Shown: piece by piece, positions 3,872 through 62,744 of the stretch | Numbering within the stretch: the stretch's first letter is position 1 | Layout of the letters: the number at the start of each line of letters is the position of its first letter | Assembly: GCA_965230975.1 (NCBI GenBank) | Contig: OZ246402.1 | Span: 800,859 to 864,858, forward strand | Source of the DNA: an uncultured Candidatus Saccharibacteria bacterium | Lineage (GTDB): Bacteria; Patescibacteriota; Dojkabacteria; J137 | Length of the DNA stretch: 64,000 bases | Direction: 5' to 3' | The notes under the pieces: model-generated | Databases searched by the model: none | Seen by the model: the letters and a program-made list of their open reading frames with translations, nothing else | What the model was told of the DNA's origin: nothing | Translations under genes and position numbers: made by a program

Positions 3872-3912
3872 ATTGCCTTTACCCAAGTAGATATTCCTTG
3901 TATTATAATAAA

Positions 3913-4584: not shown

Positions 4585-4588
4585 TTTT

Positions 4589-24759: not shown

Positions 24760-24844
24760 TTTCTGGATATTAGAATTTTATAAAGATGTTATCACCTTTA
24801 ATACCAATTGTCTTTAGTTTAAATAAATATATACTCAGTATAAA

Positions 24845-25801
24845 TCATACCCTCACCACCACGCTTCCTCTTTTTCTTCCTGTTTCTACATACTCATGTG
24901 CTTTTGCAATATCTTCAAACTCAAATACCCTATCAATATTCGGCTTTAACTTATTACCTTCAATCAAATCTATCACAGCTTGTAAATCCTCCTTCTTTTC
25001 CGGAGCAGTACCAGTCAAGAATTTCTTACCATCTTCACGATTTTTCTTAGCAAACAACTCTGGAAAAGTAGCAACCGCCTGTAAAAACACACCATTAGAA
25101 TTCAACAAATGCTTATAATCCTTAAACCTCAAATTACCAACAACATCTAAAATAACATCAAACTTTAAAGACAAATCCCTCAAATTAATATTCTTATAAT
25201 CAATAACATCTTTAGCACCTAAAGACTTAACAAAACTTGCATTACTACCGCTACAAACACCAACAACACTAGCACCGTTAGACGCTGCAATTTGAACAGC
25301 ATTAGAACCAACAGCACCAGAAGCACCATTAATCAAAACACTCTGACCAGCCTTAAGATTACCCAAATTCAAAAAAAACAAAGCAGTACATGCACCAAAA
25401 GGAACACCAGCAGCCTCTTCAAAACTTAAATTTGATGGCTTAAGCAAAATAGCACTACTAACATCAATAACAACATACTCGGCATAAATATTAAAAACCC
25501 TAAAACCAATAACTTCATCTCCAACTTTAAAATCTGTAACACTAGACCCAACCTCTTCAACAACACCAGAAAACTCAGAACCTAAAATCTTTTTTCTTGG
25601 TGCAAAAATCCCCAAAGCTAACCTTGCTGGAATACTAAAACCCTTAGGGAATTTTGCACTCCTAATTCTTACATCCCCTGAAGTTACACCAAAAGCTTTA
25701 ACTTTAACTAATACCTGTGTAGGGTTTGGAGTTGTTTTATCAACCTCAGTAATTTTAACAACTTGTGGGCCACCATATTTTGTTACAATCGCTGCTTTCA
25801 T
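24845..25801 (-). CDS. NADPH:quinone oxidoreductase / MDR-family zinc-independent alcohol dehydrogenase-like
   Basis: MKAAIVTKYGGPQVVKITEV...VKVKAFGV N-terminus and Rossmann motif LINGASGAVGSNAVQIAASNGASVVGV, typical of Qor-type medium-chain reductases. Confidence 0.8.
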   Translation of the reverse strand: MKAAIVTKYGGPQVVKITEVDKTTPNPTQVLVKVKAFGVTSGDVRIRSAKFPKGFSIPARLALGIFAPRKKILGSEFSGVVEEVGSSVTDFKVGDEVIGFRVFNIYAEYVVIDVSSAILLKPSNLSFEEAAGVPFGACTALFFLNLGNLKAGQSVLINGASGAVGSNAVQIAASNGASVVGVCSGSNASFVKSLGAKDVIDYKNINLRDLSLKFDVILDVVGNLRFKDYKHLLNSNGVFLQAVATFPELFAKKNREDGKKFLTGTAPEKKEDLQAVIDLIEGNKLKPNIDRVFEFEDIAKAHEYVETGRKRGSVVVRV

Positions 25802-26160
25802 AAATTAATCGAATAATAAATCACACCTACATTAAAAAACAAACTAATTACTAGTAAAAACTTATCGTAATAACCTTTATAAGTAGGTATTCCAAACAAA
25901 TTAAACACAAAGAAAAATCCAGAAACAACAATATTTACAACCTTATTAAAATCTATTGGTAAAACTAAATTTAAAAACACCATCAAAATAGGAACAACCA
26001 TCAAACAAGCTATAAACATCATCATAGACTGAGTAAGCTTCTTACCTTCAACCTCACCCATAACAAAATCCCCCTTAAAAATCCTTAAAACATCTCCAAG
26101 CAAGTAAACAAGTGCAGTGCAAATCCAAAGCGCGCTAATTAAGATTATATTATTGTCCAT
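25798..26160 (-). CDS. small integral membrane protein (DoxX-like)
   Basis: 120 aa with 4 TM helices. Its stop overlaps the start of the oxidoreductase gene by 4 bp. Confidence 0.4.
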   Translation of the reverse strand: MDNNIILISALWICTALVYLLGDVLRIFKGDFVMGEVEGKKLTQSMMMFIACLMVVPILMVFLNLVLPIDFNKVVNIVVSGFFFVFNLFGIPTYKGYYDKFLLVISLFFNVGVIYYSINL

Positions 26161-50336: not shown

Positions 50337-51158
50337 ATGACAAATAAAAAAACCATTATTGCTATAGCTTTATTTTCTATAATTACCTTAATTGCTATTA
50401 TACTAATTGTAATAGTTGGTACATTAGCAGATAAAAATAATTATTCTGATAGAAACGATTCGGGATTTAATAACAATGGGTATGGGAATTATCAAAAAAA
50501 TCAGAAATCTAGTTACACAGAGCAAAACCTACCAAAATTCATTAAGGAAAATTATATTGATTTAAATTTAATTGGTTTTGTATCTCAATTTAGGTCAGAT
50601 AACGGACATGACTTTTCCGATGAGACAGCTAAGTGTTCTAGTATGAAGCATTATTTTGAATTTCCACTAGGGAAACGATTAGATGTTAACGGTCCAAATG
50701 GAATTCCTGCAGACCCGACAGCACAAAATGGTGTGCCAATATATGCACCTGTAGATGGCACAATACTGGATATTCAGTCAGAAGTATTCCCATTAGGTAA
50801 ACAGCTTCATATTCAGGTAAAAGATTATACAGATTTTAAGGTAAGATTATTTCATATTTACCCGATTATCACTTTAAAAGTTGGTCAACAAGTTAAAGCA
50901 GGTGATCAAATTGGCTTAATAAATATGGGACAAGGTACAGATATTGCAGTAGAAGCAAATATAAATTCCAATAGAAGATTTTATTCAATTTTTGAGTTAA
51001 TGACCGATCAACTATTTCAAAAATATATACAAAAAGGTGCAAGTTCTAGAGATGAATTTATACTTTCAGAGCAATATCGTAAAGAGAATCCATTAACATG
51101 TAACGGCCAACAATTTACTAATCATTCAGAAACTTGGAAAGAGTGGGTTGCATTTTAA
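50337..51158 (+). CDS. membrane-anchored M23/LytM-like peptidase-domain protein
   Basis: N-terminal TM. Shares PVDG(T/R)I...VKAGD(Q/V)IG blocks with the 59795-60580 gene. The HxH motif is not obvious in this copy. Confidence 0.4.
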   Translation: MTNKKTIIAIALFSIITLIAIILIVIVGTLADKNNYSDRNDSGFNNNGYGNYQKNQKSSYTEQNLPKFIKENYIDLNLIGFVSQFRSDNGHDFSDETAKCSSMKHYFEFPLGKRLDVNGPNGIPADPTAQNGVPIYAPVDGTILDIQSEVFPLGKQLHIQVKDYTDFKVRLFHIYPIITLKVGQQVKAGDQIGLINMGQGTDIAVEANINSNRRFYSIFELMTDQLFQKYIQKGASSRDEFILSEQYRKENPLTCNGQQFTNHSETWKEWVAF

Positions 51159-51284: not shown

Positions 51285-54200
51285 TTACTTTTGCTTTTTC
51301 TTAAATACTCCCAAGTATATTGCTATTAACAATAAAACTATAAACAAAACAGCACATAGCAATGGAACAAACCAACTATTTGTTTGAGTTTCAGTTGTAG
51401 ATTCTCCTAAAACATTTCCACCCGCATTTTCATTGCTTTGATTTGACTCATCTGTACCATTTTCATTTGATTCTTCTTCTAAAGTGTTGTCAGTTTGGTT
51501 TTGTTCTTCTTGGCTATTGCTACCTTGATTTGAGTTACCTTGCCAACTTGCACCTATACCCAAAACCGCACCATTATTAACAACAATCACAACACCTGCA
51601 GATGCAGTATCTGAATTTGAATCTGTAACATCTAACCTACAATAGTAACTACCTGGAGTTGTTGGGACAGTTGCAGTATTAGTTAAACCTGTTGCAGTTA
51701 AAGTACCACTTCCAGAACAAGCACCAGACCAAACATAGCTAAAGTTTGCATCTCCCGAAAGAACATTACCTTGCAAAGTAACTAATGTTCCTTGAGATAC
51801 GTTTGTTGATGGTGTTGCAAAAATAATTACAGATGGAAGTGTGTTATTTGCACTTACAGTTATACTAGAAGTTGCAGTATCTCCATCAGAATCTGTGACT
51901 AGCACATTACAATTATAAGATGTTGCACTTGGTGTATTTAAAACTACACTTGCTGTGTTACCACTACAAGCACCACTCCATAAATAAGAAACTATTGTAT
52001 TACCAGCCAAAACATTGCCCGAAATATCTGCAATTAAAGTAACTGGTGTACCTACAAGAACAGATGTAGACGGGTTTGCATTAATAGATACAGATGGCAA
52101 AGTGTTATTAATAACTAGTTGCGAATTAGCAGTAGTTGTATTACCTGCTTCATCTGTAATACTACATTCAATATCTAATGTTTTTGTTAGGTTAGGTAAG
52201 TCAACATTTAAATCCCCGGGGCTGAACACAGAAGGGGTACATGTTAATGACAAGTTTTCCGGATTATTTAAAACAAAATCTTCAATAGCTGGTGCAGAAT
52301 CTCCTTCATTTATTGTTAAGGTTTGTAATTCTAAAATTGGGAAAACCTTATCAATATTAGTAACAGTAGCAATTGCACTACCTAAGTTACCTGCCAAATC
52401 TGAAAATGTAAATGTGAATGTTCCATTATCATCGAATGTGAACATGTTAGATGCTCCATTGTTTGTAATTGTAACAGTCTCACTTGTACTTAAAGTTGCT
52501 ACCACACTTGTGTTTGTAGGTGTAGTTATTGAGTAAGAAATACTACCAGTTGGGGCTACTGTATCTAAAGTTACATTCCAAATCTCGCTCCAATTACTTT
52601 CATTTCCCAATTGATCTATTGCTTTTACCTGCCAATACCATGTTCCATCTGGTGCACCAACAGAAAGTATTTGAGGTAAATTTAAAGGATTTTGAGCCGG
52701 GTTAGAACTTGATGTGTTTACCCATACACCAGAATTCAAAACCCCACCAACTTGGCTTGAACTTAAAGATGCTTGAAAAACATATGTAATTGGTCCTGGA
52801 TTATTATCTGTAGAAGAATCCCAATTAAAGTAAAAATTATTGGTATTTAAATACGAGTTATGTGGCAATCCATTTGTAGGTACAGATGGAGCAGTAGTAT
52901 CTAACACAAATTCATATTGAGTTGTATTGCCTGCTACATCAAATACTACAAGAGTATTTGTTCCCTCAATAGCTCCAAAAACTCCGGGTTTTACATTATT
53001 TAAATCACTCCAAGGGTTATTACTTAAATCTTTTACAACTCCATTAATGCTTACCTTATCTATTTTATTTGCATCATAAAGTTTAAAACTAACAATCTTA
53101 AACATATTTCCATTACCAATAGAAAATGGTGTATATGAATTACCCCATGCACTTCCTTTAACATAAAAACTAGGATTAGTTATATCTATAGTAAAGTCAA
53201 AAGTCTTGGTGGTAGATATATTTCCAGCTTTATCTTGAGCATTATATTTAAGTGTGTAGTTGCCTGCTGGTAAAGGTAAATTACCTGCCATAACAGTTGC
53301 TAAATCAATGGTGTGTGTCCCACTTAAACCTGAAATACTTACACTTGTGCTTCTATACAATGTACCATTTTTGTAAATATTACCAACTATCCTATCTAAA
53401 GCCAAATTATCTGTTGAATCAATAACTAAATCCATTGTTTGATTAAATACATTAGAAGAGGGTAGTGGGCTGGTAAGCGTTACTGTTGGCTTTGTATTAT
53501 CTATATAAAACTGTCTTAAAGCTTGGCCCCAAGTAGTATTGGAGTCTAAAAATTGTGCCGAGAATACATATAATCCATCTGGTGTTAATGTTGTATTGTA
53601 CTCACAAGATTCATCTAAAGATGTACCAAGTAAATCTGCACCAGGTGCTTCTTGGCAAACAAAAACTAAGTTACCTGAACTCTCAAACGCATCTTTCCAA
53701 TACCTTAAATAGTAACTACCCATTCCATAATCATCTGTAGCTAAAGCTCTACTTGTTATTGTGCCTTTTACATAAGAATTTTCTAAGGGTGTAGGGCTTA
53801 CAATATTCACAACAGGTGCTTCGTTACCAAACATATTTACATTCATAGCCAAGGTGAAAGGACTCCAATCTGTATCCCGTCTTAAAATACCAACGCCGCT
53901 TGCACCTGAATCTGTATAAAAACCTGCATGTGTTGTATTCCAAAATACTACACCTGGTTCTGTATCTGTACCAGTTGTAGGGCTTAATGTTGCTAAACTA
54001 ACATTTAAAGAATCATATGGACCAGGCATTCCAATTGGCGAGTATCCATGTACACTTGTGTTATATGCCAAAGTTATAATTACGTTATTTGGTAAAGTTA
54101 AATTATCTAAAGAAAAATCATAAGAGATATTAAATGCATATCCATTTGTACATACACCTCTTACTGCATCAAACCATTTACCTCCAAAAGGTACATTTGT

Positions 54201-55190
54201 TGAAGGATCTGTGCAGTTAACAGCGTCATAAGATGGTCTAAAAGGGATATTTGCATTTATAGTCTTGGTTGTAATTAAACTACCTACTTTATTTGTTCCA
54301 CTTGAACTATCTACATTGTAAATGTTTAAAGTAATAGGATGAGTAAAAGAGCTACCAGGTGTAGTTACACAAGCTTCTGTAGAAGTTCTATTAGGAACCC
54401 ATGCAGAGCCACTCCAAGAAAAGTCATTTTCACAAGACCAGTTTGTTAAACTAATTTCTATAGTGCTTAGTTTTCTAAAAGAACCTGCCAAAGTAATTTG
54501 ATCACCAAATTCTTTTGTTGAAGTAGCAGCATAACCCAAGCTTGAAAATGCACCAGGGTAAACTGATGGAATACTATTATAAGTAACTACAAAAACTGTA
54601 AAGTGGTTACCAGCGAAAGTTATTGTATTATTACCAATATTTGCATTAACATCTTTAAAACTAATATTATCTTCTGAATATTTAAGTTCTGCATTATTTC
54701 CAAAAGGATTAGGCAAAGTCATTACATATTCAAATGTGTAATTTTGCATGTTTGTATTAAACTCGTAGCCTTTAGAAAAAATACCTTCTACCATTAATTC
54801 AACTTCTTTAATACTAAAAAAATTATCGCCCTGTGGTAGTTTTGTAAAAGTTATATTTACCTGATTGTTATTATAAAAAGTGTAAAGATAGTTTAATTGA
54901 ATATTACTAAAAGTTTGTGTGCCATTCGAATCAATGGAATATTGAGGCTGAATTGGTTTTGAAGCCTCGTTTAAGCCTTTTCCAGGCTGATCAACTTGTA
55001 CATTTTCTGTACTATCAACCACAGCTGGTTCTTCTTGCTGATTGTATGTTGCTGGGTAAGACGGGATATTCTCATCTGTACCACTATATTCTTCTGCAAA
55101 TAAAGGTGTTACGGGGTAAACTAAAAAGAAGGCTAAATAACTCAGTAAGCAAAAAATCTTGAGCCGGGATTTTTGAGTAATTATTCTCAT
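51285..55190 (-). CDS. giant cell-surface protein (1301 aa) with C-terminal TM anchor
   Basis: N-terminal signal. ~1200-aa extracellular region with Ig/PKD-like composition. Acidic S/N/E/Q-rich linker, then TM WFVPLLCAVLFIVLLLIAIYLGVF and KKKQK stop-transfer. Confidence 0.75.
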   Translation of the reverse strand: MRIITQKSRLKIFCLLSYLAFFLVYPVTPLFAEEYSGTDENIPSYPATYNQQEEPAVVDSTENVQVDQPGKGLNEASKPIQPQYSIDSNGTQTFSNIQLNYLYTFYNNNQVNITFTKLPQGDNFFSIKEVELMVEGIFSKGYEFNTNMQNYTFEYVMTLPNPFGNNAELKYSEDNISFKDVNANIGNNTITFAGNHFTVFVVTYNSIPSVYPGAFSSLGYAATSTKEFGDQITLAGSFRKLSTIEISLTNWSCENDFSWSGSAWVPNRTSTEACVTTPGSSFTHPITLNIYNVDSSSGTNKVGSLITTKTINANIPFRPSYDAVNCTDPSTNVPFGGKWFDAVRGVCTNGYAFNISYDFSLDNLTLPNNVIITLAYNTSVHGYSPIGMPGPYDSLNVSLATLSPTTGTDTEPGVVFWNTTHAGFYTDSGASGVGILRRDTDWSPFTLAMNVNMFGNEAPVVNIVSPTPLENSYVKGTITSRALATDDYGMGSYYLRYWKDAFESSGNLVFVCQEAPGADLLGTSLDESCEYNTTLTPDGLYVFSAQFLDSNTTWGQALRQFYIDNTKPTVTLTSPLPSSNVFNQTMDLVIDSTDNLALDRIVGNIYKNGTLYRSTSVSISGLSGTHTIDLATVMAGNLPLPAGNYTLKYNAQDKAGNISTTKTFDFTIDITNPSFYVKGSAWGNSYTPFSIGNGNMFKIVSFKLYDANKIDKVSINGVVKDLSNNPWSDLNNVKPGVFGAIEGTNTLVVFDVAGNTTQYEFVLDTTAPSVPTNGLPHNSYLNTNNFYFNWDSSTDNNPGPITYVFQASLSSSQVGGVLNSGVWVNTSSSNPAQNPLNLPQILSVGAPDGTWYWQVKAIDQLGNESNWSEIWNVTLDTVAPTGSISYSITTPTNTSVVATLSTSETVTITNNGASNMFTFDDNGTFTFTFSDLAGNLGSAIATVTNIDKVFPILELQTLTINEGDSAPAIEDFVLNNPENLSLTCTPSVFSPGDLNVDLPNLTKTLDIECSITDEAGNTTTANSQLVINNTLPSVSINANPSTSVLVGTPVTLIADISGNVLAGNTIVSYLWSGACSGNTASVVLNTPSATSYNCNVLVTDSDGDTATSSITVSANNTLPSVIIFATPSTNVSQGTLVTLQGNVLSGDANFSYVWSGACSGSGTLTATGLTNTATVPTTPGSYYCRLDVTDSNSDTASAGVVIVVNNGAVLGIGASWQGNSNQGSNSQEEQNQTDNTLEEESNENGTDESNQSNENAGGNVLGESTTETQTNSWFVPLLCAVLFIVLLLIAIYLGVFKKKQK

Positions 55191-55417
55191 AATATAGGAG
55201 ATAAAGAATAAATTTATACAACAGTTTTATATAAAGTATATCACTGTTTTCTTTAAATAAAAGCCCTATAACTCAAATTGTAAAAAAATTTACCAAATAA
55301 GTAATTCCATTTTAATCTGTTTATGGTATCATTCATATAACATAATCCCACAGATGTTTATACAATTTACAAATAATTAAATTTATTTGTTTTTTTATTT
55401 TTATTGACAATTAAATT

Positions 55418-57718
55418 ATGAAACTCTTTAACCGAACTGGAAAGTACAAATTCAATAAAAGACGTGAATTTGGAAGCGAAACCAATATCTCTCCACTACC
55501 TTGGCTTCATGAAAAGCCATCAACTTTTAAGCTAGTATTTAGTAGAGTAGCAATATTCTTAACTGTGTTCTTTTGGGTTTTATACATACTCTCAATTGTC
55601 CTAAGACAAGTTGTAAACTCTGCAGGTAGAGGTTATGACTTTACTTTAGAAGCATTTGCCTATGCAAGTGTGGTAACATTTCTAACATTTTCTGCATTAA
55701 TGTATTTAATATCTAGGCTAGGAGCATTTGAAAGATTCTTAAGCCATGTTAGAGTTCCACACTCAGTACTTGAAAAACATTTTAGTGAAAATAAATCAGA
55801 GATAACAGTATTGGTACCAAGCTATGATGAAGAGCCAAGCGTAATTAGAAAAACATTGCTTTCTGCAGCACTTCAAGAGTACCCCGAAAAGAGAGTAGTA
55901 CTATTACTAGACGACAAGCCTTTTCCAACTGACCCTAAGGTATTAAACAGATTGAATGAAACAAGAGAGATTGCTAAAGATATAAACACATTGTTAAAAG
56001 AACCTTTCAAAAGATTTGAAAAATCTTATTCAGAATTTACTAAAACAATATCTAGTAAAAAAAGTGCTACTAATAAAGATATTCAGTTAATCGAAAAAGA
56101 GTACGAATGGGCTGCACATTTTTTAAATAATTTAGCTGAATCAGAAAAAATTGAAGACCATGTTGATGTATTCTTTAAAGAGCAAGTATTACTTGGATTA
56201 TCTTACGATTTAAGTTTGGTAGCAAAAGCATTAAAAGCATCTAGCAATGATGGAGCAAAAATATCTCTAGAAAGAATTGATCAACTTTATCAAAGACTTT
56301 TATGGATTTTTAAATGTGAAGTTTCATATTTTGAAAGAAAAAAATATGTATCTTTATCACACGAAGCAAATAAAGCTATGAACCTAAACTCTTATATAGG
56401 GTTAATGGGTGGAACATATACAATAGAGGCAACTCCGGATGGGAACATACTTTTACCTTCTTCAGAGAAATCAGAAGGTGAGAAAATTACTATTAAAGAC
56501 TCAGAGTTCTTACTAACCTTGGATGCAGATTCAATATTACTTAGAGACTATTGCTTAAGACTTGTATACTTTTTACAAGAACCAGGCAACGAAAGAGTGG
56601 CAGTAACTCAAACACCCTATTCATCTTTTAGAGGAGCGTTTACGCGAATAGAAAGAATATCTGCTGCAACAACTGACATTCAACATATTTTGCACCAAGG
56701 CATGACTAAATTTAACGCAACCTTTTGGGTTGGTGCAAACGCAGTTATTAGAAAGAAAGCTGTAGAAGATATTGTGGAGAAAGAGTGGATTGGTGGTTTT
56801 GAGATAAAAAGATACATCCAAGATAGAACAGTAATTGAAGATACAGAATCTAGCATTGACTTAGCTAAACATGGTTGGAAGTTAGTTAACTATCCAGAAA
56901 GACTAAGTTACAGTGCTACACCGCCAGATTTTGGGTCACTTGTTATTCAAAGAAGAAGGTGGGCTAATGGCGGATTATTAATATTGCCAAAACTATGGAG
57001 CGTAATAAGTGAAAGAAAAAAAAGAAACGAAAATGTATCTTTAATGGAGATATTAATCAGAATAAACTACATGGCATCTATTGCCTGGTCAAGTTTGGGG
57101 CTACTATTCTTACTTGCATATCCATTTAATGGACAACTTTTAAGTACATTAGTTTTATTAACTGCATTACCGTACTTTATAGCTCAAGCAATAGATTTAA
57201 AATATTGTAGATACAATTATAGAGATATTTTAGGAATTTATGGTTTTAACTTAATATTACTACCCGTTAACTTGGCAGGAGTTTTAAAATCAATAGAACA
57301 AACACTTACCGGAAAGAAAATTCCATTTGCAAGAACACCAAAGATTAAAAACAGAACTGCCACAGGATTACTTTATGTTGCAGCACCATTAGGAATTGTA
57401 TTATTCTCAATTCTTACTTTTTGGAGAAATGTATTTGAACAAAACTGGGGAAACGCTTTATTTGCTGGCTTTAACGCTTTAGCCGCTGTTTGGGCAATTT
57501 CATCTTATATGGGAATTGGAAACTTCTTAACAGACTTTTGGTTAGGTATAACAAATTGGCTTTACGTAGAAGAGAAACCTAAAAAAGCAAAAACGGTTGC
57601 AAAGCCAGAAAAAGAACTAGACTGGAAAGCAGTTTTATACCACGGAGAAAGTGATGGTATTGTGCCATACACTTATTTAAAAAACTTAGTTGTTAATAAT
57701 GTTAAAGAATCAAAATGA
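55418..57718 (+). CDS. processive family-2 glycosyltransferase (chitin/cellulose-synthase-like), membrane-embedded
   Basis: N-terminal TMs. VLVPSYDEEP (UDP-binding D), DxD at LTLDADSIL, QTPYSSF, and the processive-synthase signature QRRRWANG (QxxRW). C-terminal multi-TM channel-like region. Confidence 0.75.
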   Translation: MKLFNRTGKYKFNKRREFGSETNISPLPWLHEKPSTFKLVFSRVAIFLTVFFWVLYILSIVLRQVVNSAGRGYDFTLEAFAYASVVTFLTFSALMYLISRLGAFERFLSHVRVPHSVLEKHFSENKSEITVLVPSYDEEPSVIRKTLLSAALQEYPEKRVVLLLDDKPFPTDPKVLNRLNETREIAKDINTLLKEPFKRFEKSYSEFTKTISSKKSATNKDIQLIEKEYEWAAHFLNNLAESEKIEDHVDVFFKEQVLLGLSYDLSLVAKALKASSNDGAKISLERIDQLYQRLLWIFKCEVSYFERKKYVSLSHEANKAMNLNSYIGLMGGTYTIEATPDGNILLPSSEKSEGEKITIKDSEFLLTLDADSILLRDYCLRLVYFLQEPGNERVAVTQTPYSSFRGAFTRIERISAATTDIQHILHQGMTKFNATFWVGANAVIRKKAVEDIVEKEWIGGFEIKRYIQDRTVIEDTESSIDLAKHGWKLVNYPERLSYSATPPDFGSLVIQRRRWANGGLLILPKLWSVISERKKRNENVSLMEILIRINYMASIAWSSLGLLFLLAYPFNGQLLSTLVLLTALPYFIAQAIDLKYCRYNYRDILGIYGFNLILLPVNLAGVLKSIEQTLTGKKIPFARTPKIKNRTATGLLYVAAPLGIVLFSILTFWRNVFEQNWGNALFAGFNALAAVWAISSYMGIGNFLTDFWLGITNWLYVEEKPKKAKTVAKPEKELDWKAVLYHGESDGIVPYTYLKNLVVNNVKESK

Positions 57719-59319
57719 GAAAATTAAAAAAAGAAAAACTAACACAAACAACCACTCCTCAAAGAAGATTATCTTTATTTAGAGTTTTAATTGCTGTTTT
57801 AATATCAGGAGCTAGCATTTATTATGTTGCAACTAATTGGATCGATCTTAAAGATAAAGTTATAGAGATAGTTATTGCAAGTTCTACCAGCACTCAGTTT
57901 TATGCACCTTATGTAGATGTCACCGCAACTCCAACATTTGAGTTTGAAAAACTTGGAAATACCACTTCTAAAAATGTAGTTTTATCTTTTATTGTCGCAA
58001 GTAAAGAAGATGCTTGCTTACCAACATGGGGCACAGCATATAATTTAGATCAAGCAAGCGTAGGTTTAGACCTAGACAGAAGAATTGCAAGACTTAGGCA
58101 ATTAGGTGGAGATATCTCTATATCTTTTGGCGGACTGTTAAATAATGAGCTAGCAGTTGGTTGCACAGATTTAGATAAATTAAAGCTTGCTTATAAATCT
58201 GTAATCGAGAAATATAATGTATTCACATTAGATTTAGACATAGAAGGAAATGCATTGAATGATACATCATCTAACATAAGAAGAGCAGAGGCTTTGTATG
58301 CTTTACAACAAGAGTACAAACAAGATAATAAAAACCTAGCTATTTGGTTAACATTGCCGGTCACAACTAATGGGTTAACAGAAGCAGGCACAAATTTTGT
58401 TTCCACTATGCTTAATTACAATGTAGATATTGCAGGAGTTAATGCTATGACTATGAACTTTGGAGATAGTAAAGATAGCGATACATCTATGGCACAAGCT
58501 TCTATCAAGTCGCTAAATGAAACTCATAGACAACTTGGAATATTATATAGACAATCCGGAACAAGTCTAAGTAGCACCTCATTGTGGAAAAAAATAGGAG
58601 CTACACCAATGATTGGGCAAAATGATTTCTCTAAAGAGGTATTTCGTTTATCAGATGCGAAAACTCTAAATGAATATATACTTTCTCAAGGTATTATTAG
58701 AACTTCAATGTGGTCTATTAATAGAGATAGACAGTGTGGAGAAAACTATGCAAATGTTAACCAGGTTTCTGATTCTTGTAGTGGTACAGAGCAAAACGCT
58801 TTAGATTATTCAGTTGCATTAGCAAATGGATTGACTGGTAACTTTATTGTAAACCAAAACAATACTACCAAAGAGAGTTCAGATAAGGAGGTATTAATTT
58901 CAGATGATCCAGAAAATAGTCCTTACAGAATTTGGGGACCAACAGATGTTTATATTGCTGGTACAAAAGTTGTATGGAAACGGAATGTTTACCAGGCAAA
59001 ATGGTGGACTCAAGGTGAAAACCCAGATAACCCTGTACTTCAAGCATGGCAAACTCCATGGCAATTAATTGGGCCTGTGTTACCCGGAGAAAAACCAGTT
59101 GAGCAACCAACTTTGCCAGATGGAACTTATCCGGAATGGGATAGTAAAGCTGAGTACCAAGCTGGTGATAGGATATTATTTAACAAAGTTCCTTTCCAAG
59201 CAAAGTGGTGGACACATGCAGATAATCCAAGTGTTTCTATTGCCAACCCCGCTATTTCGCCATGGGTTCAATTAAACATAACTCAAATTGAAGAGATTTT
59301 AAAAAGCCAAAACAAATAG
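57715..59319 (+). CDS. GH18-family (chitinase-like) protein with two C-terminal CBM5/12 chitin-binding modules
   Basis: N-terminal TM. SxGG motif (ISISFGG) and DxDxE catalytic motif (LDLDIEG) of GH18. Two CBM5/12 repeats: AGTKVVWKRNVYQAKWWTQGENPD and AGDRILFNKVPFQAKWWTHADNPS. Its start overlaps the GT2 stop by 4 bp. Confidence 0.7.
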   Translation: MRKLKKEKLTQTTTPQRRLSLFRVLIAVLISGASIYYVATNWIDLKDKVIEIVIASSTSTQFYAPYVDVTATPTFEFEKLGNTTSKNVVLSFIVASKEDACLPTWGTAYNLDQASVGLDLDRRIARLRQLGGDISISFGGLLNNELAVGCTDLDKLKLAYKSVIEKYNVFTLDLDIEGNALNDTSSNIRRAEALYALQQEYKQDNKNLAIWLTLPVTTNGLTEAGTNFVSTMLNYNVDIAGVNAMTMNFGDSKDSDTSMAQASIKSLNETHRQLGILYRQSGTSLSSTSLWKKIGATPMIGQNDFSKEVFRLSDAKTLNEYILSQGIIRTSMWSINRDRQCGENYANVNQVSDSCSGTEQNALDYSVALANGLTGNFIVNQNNTTKESSDKEVLISDDPENSPYRIWGPTDVYIAGTKVVWKRNVYQAKWWTQGENPDNPVLQAWQTPWQLIGPVLPGEKPVEQPTLPDGTYPEWDSKAEYQAGDRILFNKVPFQAKWWTHADNPSVSIANPAISPWVQLNITQIEEILKSQNK

Positions 59320-59338: not shown

Positions 59339-59370
59339 AAAACAGCCCCTTTCGGGGCTGTTTTTTTATT
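59339..59370 (+). terminator. rho-independent terminator
   Basis: AAACAGCCCC-TTTC-GGGGCTGTTT followed by TTTTATT. Also usable from the convergent minus-strand gene. Confidence 0.85.
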
Positions 59371-59381
59371 ATAAACGAATT

Positions 59382-59663
59382 TTAAGCTGCTTTTGCAACT
59401 GCAGCTGGCTTTGTAATATGAGCAGAGATTAATTTAGCGATCTCGAACATATTTACAGAATCTCTATCTGCAAAAATCTTTTTTAATTTTGCATCTGTAT
59501 TTACATTTCTTTTGTTAGTTTGGTCTTGTAAACCATTTGCTCTAATGTATTCCCAAAGTTTTTTTACAACTTCTGTTCTAGGCATTGGGCCTTTACCTAC
59601 TACTGCTTCTAAATCTGCAGATAAATTTAATGGTTGCTTTAATCCTTTTGCTGCTTCAGCCAT
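59382..59663 (-). CDS. SWIB/MDM2-domain protein
   Basis: LSADLEAVVGKGPMPRTEVVKKLWEYIRANGLQDQTNKRNVNTDAKLKKIFADRDSVNMFEIAKLISAHI matches the SWIB/MDM2 domain consensus (chlamydial, plant and eukaryotic BAF60b-type). Confidence 0.75.
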   Translation of the reverse strand: MAEAAKGLKQPLNLSADLEAVVGKGPMPRTEVVKKLWEYIRANGLQDQTNKRNVNTDAKLKKIFADRDSVNMFEIAKLISAHITKPAAVAKAA

Positions 59664-59794: not shown

Positions 59795-60580
59795 TTAATT
59801 AACAATATCTTCTCCTATGCCTGGCATATAACATAATGTATTTTGAGTAATTGGGACCCCACCGCATACACCTTGCATATAAATGCTAGACATTTTATTA
59901 ACAATCTCTTTAGAAAAAATATTTGGACATAATAACCCGTTACTTCCATTCATATGCAAATTATAGTGAATATGAGTGCCAGTTTTTGGATCGCTACTAA
60001 ACTTTGGCATTATTGCAATTACATCTCCTGCTTTAACTTCTTGACCCTCTTCTACTTTTATATATTTTTTATAGTAATCTGCATTTGTTTTGCATCTTAA
60101 TCCATCAAAAGGCTCAATACTGTAATCTAAAGATACAGGAACACCGTTTAAACTGGCAAAACTTACAGATACATCAAACTTATCATGTGTTCCCAAGTCA
60201 AAACATGGTTGAACCCTTGTTATTCGTCCATCTACGGGTGTTATTATTTCAACCTCATATGGAGCATTATTATTTGTAAAGTTTATGTGGGCACCAGAGT
60301 GTGGGCAACTTGTGTTTAATCCCATAAACGGTGTTGTGCTTGCAATGTATTTATAATCTGATTCTTTAACTATAAATAAATCTGTTGGTTTATTTACAAA
60401 TGTTTTTATGCTTGGCAAATCACTTCCAAATATAGTGGTGGAAATATCATAGCTAATATTTTTTGATTTTGAGAGTGCTATTAAAAGTATAGAAAGTGGA
60501 ACCAAAACAAATACAGTTATTATTGCAATGAGGATGTATTTTTTTGTGTTAGGTGTTTTCAAATATTTATTAGTAAACAC
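59795..60580 (-). CDS. membrane-anchored M23-family peptidase-like protein
   Basis: N-terminal TM. PVDGRITRV..., VKAGDVIAIM, and a C-terminal GTHIHYNLHMNG (HxH) typical of lysostaphin/LytM-type M23 domains. Confidence 0.5.
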   Translation of the reverse strand: MFTNKYLKTPNTKKYILIAIITVFVLVPLSILLIALSKSKNISYDISTTIFGSDLPSIKTFVNKPTDLFIVKESDYKYIASTTPFMGLNTSCPHSGAHINFTNNNAPYEVEIITPVDGRITRVQPCFDLGTHDKFDVSVSFASLNGVPVSLDYSIEPFDGLRCKTNADYYKKYIKVEEGQEVKAGDVIAIMPKFSSDPKTGTHIHYNLHMNGSNGLLCPNIFSKEIVNKMSSIYMQGVCGGVPITQNTLCYMPGIGEDIVN

Positions 60581-60707: not shown

Positions 60708-62744
60708 TTAAGCAGATTTACTATACTGTTGGTACATTTGAGTTTCTTTTGGCTCCCTAACAACAACTCTTTGGTAAGGGTTTGTGACCCAGTTTTCAAT
60801 TAACGTTACTGGAACATCATCTAAAATCACAACATGAGAAAGTGTTTTATTGTAATCTAAACCTTTATTGTACATATCTTTTATTACATCTTTGTAAAAC
60901 TCCTGAATATTGAGAATATTTGCTTTGTTAAGATTTACATTAGTTTCACTAGAGATAGTTAATATTTTGCCTAAGCTTATTACCCCCGATGAGTGAATAC
61001 CTTCTTTACTGTCCATTAATAAGTCTTGCCTTGTGTATAAACCAAAATCTTTTGTATTTGTTAAAACATCTATTTCTAAGTCCTGGCTAATCTTATTAGG
61101 TTGATAAGCTATAAACGATTGTGAACCATTAATAATTGGGTAAAGTTCTCCATTAAAAACAAATGATATAGCAAAATCTTTTGGTAATTTGTCTTTATTT
61201 CTTTCTATCCTGTTTAGAAGTCTTTGGTAAATCTCTTCAAAATCAATTGGTTTAGTTTTATCTTTACTTTCAAGTTTTATCTCTGTCATTGATTGAAGAT
61301 ATAAAGATCTTAAGTACTTAACCTCTTCTTGAGTTGCCTCTGGAGATATTCTTATAGAAGAATCAAAATCTTGTACTAATTCCATTAACTCTATTTTATA
61401 TTGATAACTTATCATTTCTAATACTATTATTTCTACATTCAGTTTAAGGTTTGGATTATTTGCATTAAGTGCTACTACAATATTTTCTATGGTGGTTTGC
61501 TGAGGGTTTGTTAAGTAATTTTTAACATCGTTATAAACCTGAGTATTTGGTGTTAAAGTTTTAATTTCTTGAGTAATCTCTGCTGGAATGCTTAAATACC
61601 TTTCTGCATTTGCAACAGATGCTTTTATTGCTAATGATAATTGTTGTGAACTTTGGTTAGTATCTTGTGTATTACTTAATGCGTTGGCAAGTTCTAAAAG
61701 TTGGCCCTTTTGATTAAGTACCCTTTCTGATTTTTCTTGTTGATTATTAAGTATTGTTTCTAAAGATTGATCTTGTGGCAATACTTCTACAGTTGGCAAG
61801 TTAGGGTTTGTAGCACCAATAACATCAAAATTAATAACATCTAAAAATTCTTGAGTAACATTTGTTTTTGTTAAGAGTTCAACTTCTGAACCAGTAAAAG
61901 TTAGAGCATTTAAACTAACCGAACCTTCTATTTGCATTACATTTTGCAATATGTCGTTTACATTGTATAAAGATTGGGTTATTTGAGTGTAATCTACAGG
62001 CTCAGTTAAATCTTCAAATGATTCTGGTTTTGTTTGTAAAGCTGTATCTTGGTCTAGTTGTTGTGTAATAGAATTAACGTCTATTGGTTGTAAAGAATCT
62101 AAGTCTTGTGTTTCTTGGTTCGACACCAATGGTTGAATTGTAGAGTCTAAGTTTGTAAATAGTTGAGGTTGTACTTCGGTTTGTATTTGAGGTTGAGTTT
62201 CTAAGTCCGGTTCAATTGGAGCATCAGATTTAGATTCAATTACTGGCTCAATTTGTATATTGGTATCAATAGGTGTATCTATTACGCTTTCTGGTAGAGT
62301 ATTCTCGATTTCTGTATATGGTTTGTAAGCGCTTACAGAATCTAATGTGCTATTGGTATCTGGTTGTAATTCTAAATCTATACTTTCAGGGCTTTCTTGT
62401 GGGTTTGTAATTTCTGTATTTGCTAAATCTATTTCTGGCATTGTACTATCAGAATAGGCTTGTGTTTGTTGAAATATGTCTTGCAATGGGTTTTGGTCTA
62501 ATGTTTCTGTTTGTGGTATTTCTACATTATTTACAATATCTATTTCTTCTTGTTTGGAATCTAGTGTTACAAAATCTGGTTTAGTAAAGTCCTGAATTGC
62601 ATCATCTTGCATTTCTATTATATTTATATCTGATGGCATCGCGTTTGCAAAGAAGTCAGATGTTTTAGGTGATACAAAGCTGTTTGGTGAGTTTACACCG
62701 GGAGTATAAGCAAAACTTGGAGCCTCTAGTGTATTTGTATTCAT
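60708..62744 (-). CDS. hypothetical protein with N-terminal acidic Q/T/P/E-rich low-complexity half
   Basis: 678-aa ORF. The first ~330 aa are a disordered acidic region. The C-terminal half is globular and has no motif. Confidence 0.45.
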   Translation of the reverse strand: MNTNTLEAPSFAYTPGVNSPNSFVSPKTSDFFANAMPSDINIIEMQDDAIQDFTKPDFVTLDSKQEEIDIVNNVEIPQTETLDQNPLQDIFQQTQAYSDSTMPEIDLANTEITNPQESPESIDLELQPDTNSTLDSVSAYKPYTEIENTLPESVIDTPIDTNIQIEPVIESKSDAPIEPDLETQPQIQTEVQPQLFTNLDSTIQPLVSNQETQDLDSLQPIDVNSITQQLDQDTALQTKPESFEDLTEPVDYTQITQSLYNVNDILQNVMQIEGSVSLNALTFTGSEVELLTKTNVTQEFLDVINFDVIGATNPNLPTVEVLPQDQSLETILNNQQEKSERVLNQKGQLLELANALSNTQDTNQSSQQLSLAIKASVANAERYLSIPAEITQEIKTLTPNTQVYNDVKNYLTNPQQTTIENIVVALNANNPNLKLNVEIIVLEMISYQYKIELMELVQDFDSSIRISPEATQEEVKYLRSLYLQSMTEIKLESKDKTKPIDFEEIYQRLLNRIERNKDKLPKDFAISFVFNGELYPIINGSQSFIAYQPNKISQDLEIDVLTNTKDFGLYTRQDLLMDSKEGIHSSGVISLGKILTISSETNVNLNKANILNIQEFYKDVIKDMYNKGLDYNKTLSHVVILDDVPVTLIENWVTNPYQRVVVREPKETQMYQQYSKSA

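What the first reader, a model, noticed from the sequence alone, without database searches (positions are those of the whole stretch)
55418..59319. Coupled processive GT2 synthase (QRRRW) and GH18 protein with CBM5/12 chitin-binding modules
The GT2 has the full D, DxD, QxxRW signature and a membrane channel region typical of chitin, cellulose, PNAG or hyaluronan synthases. Its QRRRW is closest to the chitin-synthase form. It overlaps by 4 bp a GH18 protein with intact SxGG and DxDxE motifs and two CBM5/12 modules. A synthase plus chitinase-like pair suggests production and trimming or remodelling of a chitin-like beta-1,4-GlcNAc polymer or chito-oligosaccharide. That is unusual for bacteria and would be notable in a reduced genome.
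Basis: partly seen in the sequence, partly recalled or inferred. Interest (0 to 1): 0.65.

Follow-up and report, generated by a model that had tools for sequence, protein, structure and literature searches.

The report
Conserved polysaccharide synthase–chitinase gene pair
Two overlapping genes encode a membrane sugar-polymer synthase and a membrane-anchored chitinase-type enzyme; the pair is inherited as one unit in thousands of ultra-small (CPR) bacteria and in some Gram-positive bacteria, and it probably makes and trims a chitin-like surface polymer that nobody has yet characterised.

Summary
A 766-aa processive GT2 gene (55418-57718) overlaps by ATGA a 534-aa gene (57715-59319). That gene encodes an N-terminal membrane anchor, a PF-ChiA-type GH18 domain (SxGG and DxDxE intact) and two CBM5/12 modules. 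A strong terminator follows.

- **Synthase class.** The GT2 is not a chitin synthase. By sequence and predicted fold it is nearest to BcsA/CesA cellulose synthases, but scores far below every curated family cut-off. It belongs to an uncharacterised family defined by a ~152-aa helical insert and an FxRTPK gating loop.
- **Pairing.** GH18 lies directly downstream in 79 of 80 genomes from CPR phyla, Microbacteriaceae and Ktedonobacteria. It usually overlaps the GT2. The pair also sits on Lactococcus dairy plasmids, and one relative is a natural GT2–GH18–CBM fusion.
- **Product.** Other relatives are fused to PgaB/IcaB-like CE4 deacetylases, LCP ligases or EAL domains. This points to an N-acetylglucosamine polymer, most likely β-1,4 (chitin-like). 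The sugar and linkage are not proven.

I found no publication on this cassette. I rate it a new variant of synthase-plus-hydrolase exopolysaccharide systems.

The parts
55191..55417 (+). AT-rich intergenic region upstream of the operon, divergent from the 1301-aa surface-protein gene. It presumably holds the promoter.
   Evidence: Sequence read. One weak sigma-70-like match at 55337-55366, and such matches are no more frequent here than in shuffles. The promoter is inferred only.
55418..57718 (+). Gene for a 766-aa processive, membrane-embedded family-2 glycosyltransferase (polysaccharide synthase/exporter).
   Evidence: ORF. Pfam Glyco_trans_2_3 1.3e-34. BcsA is the only PDB sequence hit. AF2 model plus Foldseek give BcsA/CesA at about 1e-10. 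More than 5000 homologues.
55523..55744 (+). Two N-terminal transmembrane helices (aa 36-109).
   Evidence: AF2 helices 36-67 and 77-109. Hydropathy segments 36-68 and 79-99.
55760..56977 (+). Cytoplasmic GT-A catalytic domain (aa 115-520) with DD165-166, NKAMNLN318-324, LDAD368-371, QTPYSSF398-404, FWVGANA436-442, IEDTE473-477 and QRRRW511-515.
   Evidence: Motif positions. They are invariant in 115-120 of 120 homologues. Alignment to BcsA DxD/TED/QxxRW.
55934..56311 (+). Family-specific four-helix insertion (aa 173-298) between the DD motif and KAMNLN.
   Evidence: AF2 helices 173-211, 219-241, 248-277 and 284-298 with pLDDT about 85-93. No PDB sequence match. The DD-to-KAxNxN spacing has a median of 152 aa across distant relatives.
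56975..57550 (+). C-terminal membrane region (aa 520-711): interface helix after QRRRW, TM helices, and the FARTPK gating-loop motif (57326-57343).
   Evidence: AF2 helices 520-535, 542-570, 577-596, 603-631, 651-673 and 677-698, with the low-confidence loop 636-648 carrying FARTPK. FxRTPK is present in 116 of 120 close homologues and in distant relatives. Its equivalence to the BcsA FxVTxK gating loop is from my own knowledge.
57715..57718 (+). ATGA overlap of the GT2 stop and the GH18 start (translational coupling).
   Evidence: Sequence. In 76 related loci the two ORFs overlap in 57 and lie 30 nt or less apart in 72.
57715..59319 (+). Gene for a 534-aa membrane-anchored GH18 chitinase-type protein with two CBM5/12 modules.
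   Evidence: ORF. PDB hits 9buf 2e-49 and 2dsk 7e-24. Foldseek top hits are all chitinases. More than 3000 homologues.
57769..57834 (+). Single N-terminal transmembrane anchor (aa 19-40), preceded by the conserved RRLS..R motif. Predicted topology is N-in, C-out.
   Evidence: Hydropathy 19-40. AF2 helix 21-40. L19, S20 and R23 are at least 90% conserved. Four invariant Cys in the ectodomain fit an extracytoplasmic location; this is inferred.
57892..58824 (+). GH18 TIM-barrel catalytic domain, PF-ChiA subtype (aa 60-370): SFGG137-140, DLDIE173-177 (58231-58245), MTMNF245-249.
   Evidence: Alignments. Invariant S137, G139, G140, D173, D175 and E177. DxDxE and SxGG occur in 120 of 120 homologues. 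TM 0.88 to S. venezuelae chitinase and 0.82 to P. furiosus chitinase.
58921..59055 (+). CBM5/12 module 1 (aa about 403-447; AKWW428-431).
   Evidence: Pfam CBM_5_12 reports two stretches. PDB hits 4txg and 2d49 cover 406-469 and 406-439.
59122..59274 (+). CBM5/12 module 2 (aa about 470-520; AKWW496-499).
   Evidence: Best Pfam CBM_5_12 stretch is 474-517. PDB 6z40 covers 470-521.
59339..59364 (.). Strong intrinsic terminator hairpin (11-bp stem, 6 GC pairs) with T-runs, between the GH18 gene and the convergent SWIB gene. It closes the two-gene transcription unit.
   Evidence: with the sequence.

Best explanation
This is a self-contained, translationally coupled two-gene operon for synthase-dependent production of an extracellular polysaccharide in a bacterium without an outer membrane.

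Protein 1 is a processive GT2 of the cellulose-synthase fold. It takes a UDP-sugar at its cytoplasmic GT-A domain, extends the chain one sugar at a time, and pushes it out through its own transmembrane channel.

Protein 2 sits beside it in the membrane on a single N-terminal helix. It exposes a PF-ChiA-type GH18 catalytic domain and two chitin-binding CBM5/12 modules on the outside. There it binds the emerging chain and cuts, releases or length-controls it. This is the role BcsZ, PgaB or AlgL play in other synthase systems.

GH18 catalysis needs a 2-acetamido group on the sugar at the cleavage site, and relatives of the synthase are fused to PgaB/IcaB-type N-deacetylases. The product is therefore most likely a poly-N-acetylglucosamine, and the chitinase partner favours β-1,4 (chitin-like).

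Shown: gene structure, catalytic motifs, fold class, obligate pairing, co-inheritance and the fusion proteins. Inferred: sugar identity, linkage, physical contact between the two proteins and the biological role (surface matrix or adhesion).
For: - **Synthase anatomy.** Motifs and predicted channel.
- **Chitinase anatomy.** Catalytic Glu aligned to the E-to-A mutant 3a4w. DxDxE and SxGG in 120 of 120 homologues. Fold TM 0.88 to a solved chitinase. Two CBM5/12 modules.
- **Pairing.** GH18 is immediately downstream of the GT2 in 79 of 80 species-representative genomes from CPR, Microbacteriaceae and Ktedonobacteria; the 80th locus is cut at the contig end. Starting from GH18 hits, the GT2 is always upstream while the flanks differ. 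There is no third conserved gene.
- **Coupling.** The ORFs overlap in 57 of 76 loci and lie 30 nt or less apart in 72 of 76. A terminator lies right after the GH18 gene.
- **Co-inheritance.** GT2 and GH18 distance matrices correlate at r=0.94.
- **Fusion.** P0247 (1345 aa) joins a 46%-identical GT2 to a GH18+CBM5/12 region 41% identical to the window GH18, at 3e-119.
- **Sugar clue.** Six relatives are fused to CE4 deacetylases; of the five scanned against NCBIfam, three have PgaB/IcaB as best CE4 match and one has PgdA/NodB. Others carry LCP ligase, acyltransferase or EAL domains. All share the family insert, FxRTPK and FWVGANA.
- **Mobility.** The cassette is on Lactococcus plasmids next to an IS6 element and on an Arthrobacter plasmid.
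Against: - No experiment and no sequence feature identifies the donor sugar.
- By sequence and fold the GT2 is nearest to glucose-polymerising cellulose synthases.
- It has the BcsA-like QTPx and F..T.K motifs and lacks chitin-synthase motifs.
- CE4 domains can also remove O-acetyl groups.
- The fusion partners belong to 35-46%-identical relatives that may make a different polymer.
- The window GH18 reads MTMNF where the family consensus is MTMDY (2 of 120). Its hydrolytic rate could be altered; the role of these two residues was not established here.
- The AF2 models are of moderate confidence (pLDDT 73 and 76).
- No UDP-GlcNAc supply genes or other polysaccharide genes accompany the pair.
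Confidence: 0.6

Rival explanations
1. The synthase makes cellulose or another β-glucan. The GH18/CBM protein does not act on the product; it locally opens peptidoglycan (lysozyme-like) or guides the chain so it can cross the thick wall of a monoderm cell.
For: The GT2 is closest to BcsA/CesA by sequence and fold. All hosts of the cassette lack an outer membrane. In Streptomyces, deposition of the CslA glycan needs the glucanase CslZ and the LPMO LpmP, which remodel peptidoglycan (PMC9040799). From my own knowledge, some GH18 enzymes such as hevamine and E. coli ChiA have reported lysozyme activity, and some CBM5 modules bind cellulose.
Against: CE4 N-deacetylase fusions of the PgaB/IcaB/NodB type in the same GT2 family have no substrate in an unsubstituted glucan. 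The GT2 scores 86 bits against the 699-bit CelA cut-off. It has no PilZ domain and no BcsB partner. Every structural neighbour of the GH18 domain is a chitinase.
Confidence: 0.2
2. The pair makes short, soluble chito-oligosaccharides in the manner of NodC, not a polymer. The GH18 sets or trims their length, and the products act as signals or are reused.
For: NodC-type enzymes share the GT2 core. There is a weak NodC hit at the N-terminal segment (22 bits). The chitinase partner could generate defined oligomers.
Against: The full channel architecture with gating-loop motif resembles polymer-exporting BcsA/CesA/HAS. NodC scores 22 bits against a cut-off of 550. Two CBM5/12 modules belong to a module family typically described as binding insoluble chitin. 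LCP-ligase fusions in relatives imply a wall-attached polymer.
Confidence: 0.08
3. The product is β-1,6-PNAG or a mixed or heteropolymer containing GlcNAc, as made by PgaC, IcaA or MatB, and not β-1,4 chitin.
For: PgaC_IcaA is the second-best NCBIfam hit (54 bits, covering aa 360-638). The CE4 domains fused to relatives match PgaB/IcaB best. Streptomyces MatB is a GT2-CE4 fusion that makes PNAG (PMC5972031).
Against: From my own knowledge, GH18 chitinases cleave β-1,4 GlcNAc linkages, while the known PNAG hydrolases are GH20 and GH153. CBM5/12 is typically a chitin-binding module. In the GT2-CE4 relatives CelA outscores PgaC, whereas MatB's top hit is PgaC.
Confidence: 0.1
4. The adjacency is incidental: the GH18 is an ordinary secreted catabolic chitinase for feeding on environmental or fungal chitin, which is how CPR GH18 genes are usually read.
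For: Published metagenomic surveys count CPR GH18 genes as chitin degradation (PMC12153355). The domain architecture (GH18 plus CBM5/12) is typical of catabolic chitinases.
Against: The synteny is 79 of 80 across three phyla with unrelated flanks. The ORFs overlap. The distance matrices correlate at r=0.94. A natural fusion exists. The protein has a conserved membrane anchor and not a cleavable signal peptide. No chitin uptake or catabolism genes lie nearby.
Confidence: 0.02

Closest known systems
Bacterial cellulose synthase BcsA with its cellulase BcsZ (and plant CesA)
   Same: Same fold class and the best structural and sequence match. It shares D, DxD, (T)ED and QxxRW, a QTPx motif, an F..T.K gating-loop-like motif, and a self-contained channel. 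A cognate glycoside hydrolase is encoded in the operon. Like CesA, it has two N-terminal TM helices and a helical insertion between the DD and DxD motifs; the CesA P-CR position is from my own knowledge and I did not test it structurally.
   Different: About 15% identity. It scores 86 bits against the 699-bit CelA cut-off. It has no PilZ domain, no BcsB and no outer-membrane parts. The partner is a GH18 chitinase and not a GH8 cellulase. The motifs differ: FWVGANA instead of FFCGS and FxRTPK instead of FxVTxK. The product is probably not glucose-based.
PNAG systems: PgaCD/PgaB, IcaAD/IcaB and Streptomyces MatAB
   Same: A GT2 synthase for a GlcNAc polymer is coupled to an extracytoplasmic processing enzyme. 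Relatives of the window GT2 are fused to PgaB/IcaB-like CE4 domains, the same domain pairing (GT2 plus CE4) as MatB (PMC5972031).
   Different: PgaC_IcaA scores only 54 bits against a cut-off of 422. The window cassette carries a GH18 chitinase and no deacetylase. The family has a 152-aa insert and about 750 aa, against about 410 aa for PgaC/IcaA.
Eukaryotic-type chitin synthases, including the horizontally acquired bacterial CHS of Proteobacteria (PMC5122149), and NodC
   Same: A literal QRRRW motif, a processive GT2 core, and a probable GlcNAc product.
   Different: It is not a member. Pfam Chitin_synth_2 scores 20 bits against a cut-off of 27, over 45 residues. NodC scores 22 against 550. 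EDR, QxFEY and S/TWGxR motifs are absent. No chitin synthase appears among the PDB profile hits or the best 50 fold matches. The bacterial CHS described in PMC5122149 are in Proteobacteria with different neighbours.
PF-ChiA-type GH18 chitinases (P. furiosus ChiA AD2, 2dsk; S. venezuelae Chitinase 1, 9buf)
   Same: The catalytic domain is homologous (2e-49 and 7e-24; TM 0.88 and 0.82). SxGG and DxDxE are conserved, and CBM5/12 modules are attached.
   Different: It is membrane-anchored by a conserved N-terminal helix and is an obligate partner of a synthase. The window copy reads MNF where the solved enzymes read MDY.
Streptomyces CslA–GlxA–CslZ–LpmP apical glycan system
   Same: A cellulose-synthase-like GT2 in a monoderm bacterium whose product needs co-encoded extracytoplasmic glycan-active enzymes to reach the surface (PMC9040799).
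   Different: The partners differ: a GH6 glucanase, an AA10 LPMO and a copper oxidase, against a single GH18/CBM5/12 protein here. No GlxA homologue is present.

Membership tests
Processive membrane-embedded GT2 polysaccharide synthases (BcsA/CesA/HAS/CHS superfamily) | GT-A domain with D, DxD, ED catalytic base and QxxRW | tested here: met
   DD165-166, LDAD368-371, IEDTE473-477 and QRRRW511-515, aligned to the BcsA motifs and invariant in homologues.
Processive membrane-embedded GT2 polysaccharide synthases (BcsA/CesA/HAS/CHS superfamily) | Transmembrane channel with interface helices built by the same polypeptide | tested here: met
   The AF2 model has 2 N-terminal and 4-5 C-terminal TM/interface helices. 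Foldseek gives probability 1.00 to BcsA, CesA and HAS over about 700-840 columns. This is a predicted structure, not a solved one.
Processive membrane-embedded GT2 polysaccharide synthases (BcsA/CesA/HAS/CHS superfamily) | Processive synthesis and export of a polymer | not testable with these tools
   Needs biochemical reconstitution.
Bacterial cellulose synthase BcsA (TIGR03030 / NF008558) | Score above the curated family cut-off | tested here: not met
   85.9 bits against 699.1, and 39.5 against 992.
Bacterial cellulose synthase BcsA (TIGR03030 / NF008558) | C-terminal PilZ c-di-GMP domain and a BcsB partner | tested here: not met
   No PilZ Pfam hit and no RxxxR...DxSxxG motif; the C-terminal tail is only about 55 aa. 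No BcsB-like neighbour in the window or in related loci.
Chitin synthase (Pfam Chitin_synth_1/2) | Pfam gathering score | tested here: not met
   Chitin_synth_2 scores 20.2 bits against a cut-off of 27, with only aa 120-164 matched.
Chitin synthase (Pfam Chitin_synth_1/2) | Signature motifs QxFEY, EDR, QRRRW and (S/T)WGx(R/K) | tested here: not met
   Only QRRRW is present; the other three are absent. The motif list is from my own knowledge.
NodC chito-oligosaccharide synthase (TIGR04242) | Score above the curated cut-off | tested here: not met
   21.7 bits against 550.
PNAG synthase PgaC/IcaA (TIGR03937) | Score above the curated cut-off | tested here: not met
   53.9 bits against 422.3.
GH18 glycoside hydrolases, PF-ChiA subtype | (β/α)8 barrel homologous to solved GH18 chitinases | tested here: met
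   phmmer gives 2e-49 to 9buf and 7e-24 to 2dsk. Foldseek TM is 0.88 and 0.82. The Pfam PF00704 model itself does not reach threshold for the window protein, though weak precomputed hits exist for many orthologues.
GH18 glycoside hydrolases, PF-ChiA subtype | SxGG and DxDxE with the catalytic Glu | tested here: met
   SFGG137-140 and D173-x-D175-x-E177. E177 aligns with the Glu replaced by Ala in mutant 3a4w. Both motifs are invariant in 120 of 120 homologues.
GH18 glycoside hydrolases, PF-ChiA subtype | Hydrolysis of β-1,4-GlcNAc linkages | not testable with these tools
   Needs an enzyme assay. Note the MNF-for-MDY substitution in the window copy.
CBM5/12 carbohydrate-binding modules | Pfam PF02839 above the gathering score | tested here: met
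   42.2 bits against 26.2, in two stretches. PDB chitin-binding domain hits 2d49, 6z40 and 4txg.
Synthase-dependent exopolysaccharide systems with a cognate processing enzyme | Synthase and an extracytoplasmic glycan-active enzyme co-encoded and co-inherited | tested here: met
   79 of 80 loci show the synteny. Overlaps, r=0.94, and the fusion P0247.
Synthase-dependent exopolysaccharide systems with a cognate processing enzyme | c-di-GMP receptor controlling the synthase | tested here: not met
   None in the window proteins. Four 46-49%-identical relatives carry EAL domains.

The most novel reading that the evidence does not exclude
This cassette is a bacterial route to chitin. It would be a minimal two-protein machine derived from the cellulose-synthase lineage, not from eukaryotic chitin synthases. 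It would spin a β-1,4-GlcNAc (chitin-like) surface polymer in monoderm bacteria, with a membrane-tethered GH18/CBM5/12 subunit acting as an integral guide and cutter (a combined BcsB/BcsZ analogue). The P-CR-like helical insert could serve for oligomerisation. If so, it would be one of the most conserved envelope systems of CPR/Patescibacteria and a candidate for their attachment matrix. It would have moved horizontally to Microbacteriaceae, Ktedonobacteria and Lactococcus plasmids. Much of the 'chitin degradation potential' assigned to CPR from GH18 counts would then be biosynthetic.
Probability: 0.35. Interest if true: 0.8.

Novelty: new variant of a known kind. Interest (0 to 1): 0.6.

Why it matters
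- **An uncharacterised, highly conserved CPR system.** CPR bacteria have tiny genomes and few recognisable envelope or adhesion systems. A two-gene module kept at about 60% identity across many CPR phyla is likely central to their surface biology and has no described function.
- **A possible second origin of chitin synthesis.** If the product is chitin-like, chitin synthesis would have arisen from the cellulose-synthase lineage in bacteria, independently of eukaryotic-type chitin synthases.
- **Ecological reinterpretation.** Metagenomic studies score CPR GH18 genes as chitin degradation (PMC12153355). For this family the enzyme is a partner of a synthase.
- **Testability.** The same cassette sits on plasmids of Lactococcus lactis, a genetically tractable, food-grade organism, and in cultivable Leifsonia. 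The question can therefore be tested directly without culturing CPR bacteria.

Tried and rejected
- **Helical insert.** Searching aa 165-329 alone against PDB sequences gave no hit at E≤10. The resemblance to the CesA P-CR rests on topology only.
- **Third conserved gene.** All-against-all clustering of ORFs from 80 loci, and from the low-GC subset, found only lineage-specific synteny such as Leifsonia housekeeping genes.
- **Phage carriage.** The only hit was an unrelated partial cellulose-synthase-like match in a Synechococcus phage.
- **Literature.** Ten full-text searches found nothing on this pair. The terms covered chitin synthase or cellulose synthase with Saccharibacteria or Patescibacteria, GH18 with CPR, GT2 with GH18 and operon, and 9BUF. 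The Lactococcus pan-plasmidome paper does not mention chitin or chitinase. The bacterial chitin synthases of PMC5122149 are a different family.
- **Lectin-like GH18.** I considered that the GH18 is inactive and lectin-like, and rejected it because DxDxE is intact in all 120 homologues. The MNF variant in the window copy remains unexplained.
- **MatB orthology.** I considered that the GT2-CE4 relatives are simply MatB orthologues. This was not supported: CelA outscores PgaC in them, whereas MatB's top hit is PgaC.
- **Reference phylogeny.** I could not build a tree against NodC, PgaC, BcsA, CHS and HasA because no reference sequences were available offline. I used curated HMM scores, a PDB profile search and a fold search in its place.

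Full report
**1. What is in the sequence**

- The first is a 766-aa protein at 55418-57718 and the second a 534-aa protein at 57715-59319, both on the + strand.
- The stop of the first and the start of the second share the tetranucleotide ATGA.
- Upstream lies a 227-nt AT-rich spacer, divergent from a 1301-aa surface-protein gene.
- Twenty bases after the second stop there is a strong hairpin terminator at 59339-59364 (11-bp stem, T-runs), facing a convergent SWIB-domain gene.

The unit is therefore a compact two-gene operon. The window is 30-32% G+C with tRNAs and typical small-genome content. The closest relatives of both proteins come from CPR/Patescibacteria metagenome bins.

**2. The synthase**

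Pfam gives Glyco_trans_2_3 at 1.3e-34. The catalytic signature is complete: DD165-166, NKAMNLN318-324, LDAD368-371, IEDTE473-477 and QRRRW511-515. These align with the DxD, TED and QxxRW motifs of Rhodobacter BcsA.

An AlphaFold2 model built on 32 homologues has pLDDT 73 and pTM 0.76. It shows:
- two N-terminal TM helices;
- a cytoplasmic GT-A domain;
- an interface helix right after QRRRW;
- four to five further membrane helices;
- a disordered loop carrying FARTPK637-642.

From my own knowledge, that loop's position and pattern correspond to the FxVTxK gating loop of cellulose synthases.

Foldseek against the PDB ranks bacterial BcsA and plant CesA first (E about 1e-10, TM 0.4-0.5). Chlorella-virus hyaluronan synthase follows (1e-6), then cyclic-glucan synthase. 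No chitin synthase appears among the best 50. A family profile searched against all PDB sequences hits only BcsA.

Curated models all fall far below cut-off:

| Model | Score (bits) | Cut-off (bits) |
|---|---|---|
| CelA | 86 | 699 |
| PgaC/IcaA | 54 | 422 |
| NodC | 22 | 550 |
| Pfam Chitin_synth_2 | 20 | 27 |

The chitin-synthase motifs EDR, QxFEY and S/TWGxR are absent, as is a PilZ motif.

The literal QRRRW is therefore not evidence of chitin-synthase ancestry. The protein is a cellulose-synthase-fold enzyme that belongs to none of the named families.

Its own hallmarks are a confidently predicted four-helix insertion (aa 173-298) between the DD and KAxNxN motifs, with no PDB sequence match, plus FWVGANA and FxRTPK. 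These are invariant or nearly so in 120 close homologues. They recur in relatives down to 35% identity, where the median insert length is 152 aa. From my own knowledge, the insert occupies the same topological site as the plant CesA P-CR. I did not test whether it resembles it in structure.

**3. The GH18 protein**

Pfam finds only two CBM_5_12 modules. The PDB sequence search gives 2e-49 to 9buf, the hydrolase domain of Streptomyces venezuelae Chitinase 1, and 7e-24 to the Pyrococcus furiosus chitinase catalytic domain. The AF2 model (pLDDT 76, barrel about 90) superposes on these at TM 0.88 and 0.82, and every top fold hit is a chitinase.

SFGG137-140 and D173-L-D175-I-E177 are present. E177 aligns with the residue changed to Ala in the inactive mutant 3a4w. 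In 120 homologues, DxDxE and SxGG occur 120 times each.

An N-terminal hydrophobic helix (aa 19-40) is preceded by a conserved RRLS..R motif. I infer an N-in, C-out membrane anchor, with the barrel and both CBMs outside. Four invariant ectodomain cysteines fit that topology.

One peculiarity: where the family and the solved enzymes read MTMDY, the window copy reads MTMNF. The census is DY 79, NY 33, DF 3, NF 2. The Lactococcus copy also reads MNF. I could not establish what these residues do, so I flag this as unexplained and do not treat it as a loss of function.

**4. The pairing is the main finding**

A scan of one genome per GTDB species found at least 545 relatives of the GT2. The best 80 loci come from:
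- Saccharibacteria, Dojkabacteria, WWE3, Levy-, Collier-, Woese- and Moranbacteria;
- Microbacteriaceae (Leifsonia, Humibacter, Mycetocola, Cryobacterium, Rhodoglobus);
- Ktedonobacteria.

Evidence that the two genes form one unit:
- In 79 of 80 loci the GH18/CBM gene lies immediately downstream on the same strand. The exception is cut at the contig end.
- Starting from three GH18 hits chosen independently, the GT2 was always directly upstream while the flanking genes were unrelated.
- No third gene is conserved.
- In 76 loci with both ORFs complete, 57 overlap (mostly -1 or -4) and 72 are 30 nt or less apart.
- Pairwise distances of the two proteins correlate at r=0.94.
- GT2 identity between phyla is 63-67% and GH18 identity 56-60%.

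In a neighbour-joining tree, the Microbacteriaceae and the Ktedonobacteria each form one clade nested among Saccharibacteria-type sequences. This suggests transfer of the whole cassette.

Mobility is directly visible. The cassette sits on mobilisable or conjugative Lactococcus lactis and L. cremoris dairy plasmids. There the GT2 is 54% identical and the 'chitinase' 47% identical, including both CBMs. In the two plasmids examined it lies beside prtP/prsA, and in one of them next to an IS6 transposase gene. A rearranged form is on an Arthrobacter plasmid.

**5. What relatives say about the product**

An exhaustive HMMER search of 1.84 billion cluster representatives found 498 clusters at E≤1e-30. 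I scanned 27 of the best 150 representatives (796 aa or longer) against Pfam, and 15 of them carry extra domains:

| Fusion partner | Count | Examples |
|---|---|---|
| GH18 + CBM5/12 | 1 | P0247: GT2 part 46% identical; GH18 part 41% identical to the window GH18, 3e-119 |
| CE4 polysaccharide deacetylase | 6 | P0268, P0270, P0273, P0285, P0346, P0348 |
| EAL (c-di-GMP) domain | 4 | P0245, P0248, P0252, P0256 |
| LytR-CpsA-Psr glycopolymer-to-peptidoglycan ligase | 2 | P0280, P0315 |
| Acyl_transf_3 | 1 | P0341 |
| Dimethylformamidase-like domain | 1 | P0291 |

I scanned five of the six CE4 fusions against NCBIfam. In three the best CE4 match is the PNAG N-deacetylase PgaB/IcaB, one matches PgdA/NodB, and one gave no CE4 hit. 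All these proteins carry the family insert and motifs.

P0247 is a Rosetta-stone confirmation that synthase and GH18 work together. The other fusions describe a family of monoderm wall or exopolysaccharide synthases whose product carries N-acetyl groups.

From established knowledge of GH18 substrate-assisted catalysis, the sugar at the cleavage site needs a 2-acetamido group. Known PNAG hydrolases belong to other families. Together these favour a GlcNAc polymer, with β-1,4 as the likeliest linkage.

**6. Mechanism proposed, and its limits**

Shown:
- operon structure;
- intact catalytic motifs in both proteins;
- cellulose-synthase fold with a predicted channel;
- membrane anchoring of the GH18;
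- obligate co-inheritance and a natural fusion.

Inferred:
- the GT2 polymerises UDP-GlcNAc and extrudes the chain;
- the tethered GH18/CBM protein captures and cleaves it at the outer face, as BcsZ, PgaB or AlgL do in other systems;
- the two proteins touch in the membrane (conserved juxtamembrane motifs in both);
- the polymer forms a surface matrix.

Against this reading:
- the nearest characterised homologues make glucans;
- CE4 domains can de-O-acetylate;
- nothing identifies the donor sugar directly.

The main rival is a β-glucan synthase whose GH18 partner opens peptidoglycan for passage of the chain. It is modelled on Streptomyces CslA/CslZ/LpmP (PMC9040799). I give it about 0.2. A PNAG or heteropolymer product gets about 0.1, chito-oligosaccharide signalling about 0.08, and an incidental catabolic chitinase about 0.02.

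**7. Comparison with what is known, and novelty**

In kind this is a synthase-dependent exopolysaccharide system with a cognate processing enzyme, which is a known logic. It is not a member of the BcsA, PgaC/IcaA, NodC or chitin-synthase families by their curated criteria. The synthase-plus-GH18/CBM5/12 pairing appears undescribed: ten full-text searches and the Lactococcus pan-plasmidome paper returned nothing. CPR GH18 genes are currently read as chitin degradation (PMC12153355). The library does not cover all journals, so prior description cannot be excluded.

I rate it a new variant of a known kind, with interest 0.6. The points in its favour are very wide distribution, strikingly high conservation, relevance to CPR surface biology, and direct testability in Lactococcus or Leifsonia. 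The limitation is that the product is still inferred.

Noticed in passing
window 35268-44876 and 44878-47838 (+): A 3202-aa ORF with a TTG start has recognisable domains (Fn3 and PhoD_N/purple-acid-phosphatase-N-like) only in its last 400 residues. It sits in a stretch of raised G+C (0.37 against about 0.31). Two bases later comes a 986-aa single-chain ABC ATPase plus MacB/FtsX permease. This may be a giant surface protein with a dedicated exporter.
   Followed up: partly
window 51285-55190 (-): A 1301-aa protein with Big_3_2 and PKD Ig-like domains and hydrophobic stretches near both ends (probable N-terminal signal sequence and C-terminal anchor), transcribed divergently from the GT2 gene. 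It is not a conserved neighbour of the cassette in other genomes.
   Followed up: partly
window 50337-51158 (+) and 59795-60580 (-): Two membrane-anchored proteins with weak M23-peptidase (LytM-like) matches flank the region, one on each side. They could be wall-remodelling enzymes, but they are not conserved next to the cassette elsewhere.
   Followed up: partly
window 59382-59663 (-): A 93-aa SWIB/MDM2-domain protein (9.5e-29), a chromatin-associated domain more familiar from eukaryotes and Chlamydiae. It is convergent with the GH18 gene and shares its terminator.
   Followed up: no
window 60708-62744 (-): A 678-aa protein with no Pfam match, whose N-terminal half is low-complexity and rich in Q, T, E, P and D.
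   Followed up: no
L086 (NZ_AP024213.1) and L088 (NZ_CP094476.1): In Lactococcus dairy plasmids the cassette lies directly beside the prtP/prsA casein-proteinase genes, and in L088 next to an IS6 transposase gene. In L086 the 'chitinase' is annotated from an internal Met, lacks the membrane anchor, and is separated from the GT2 by 183 nt, so some copies may be decaying.
   Followed up: partly
L081 versus L082, GT2 gene at about 3710-6001: Two contigs carry the identical GH18 protein but differ in the called GT2: 717 aa ending 137 nt before the GH18 gene, against 763 aa abutting it. This suggests a frameshift or early stop in one population or assembly.
   Followed up: no
L005, L011, L015, L016, L044, L065, L080, L067: Several MAG or genome records are titled Gammaproteobacteria, Bdellovibrionales or 'Streptomyces sp. 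L7'. Their cassette sequences are low in G+C and branch among CPR sequences, or, for L067, inside the Leifsonia clade. The record taxonomy labels look unreliable.
   Followed up: partly
L087 (Arthrobacter plasmid pNicSoilB8): A rearranged version of the module. The GT2 is flanked by a separate 'carbohydrate-binding protein' upstream and a shorter GH18 gene downstream, both on the opposite strand. A GGDEF-domain gene and transposases lie nearby.
   Followed up: no
window 24001-26000: A sharp local GC-skew minimum (-0.32) relative to the rest of the window.
   Followed up: no
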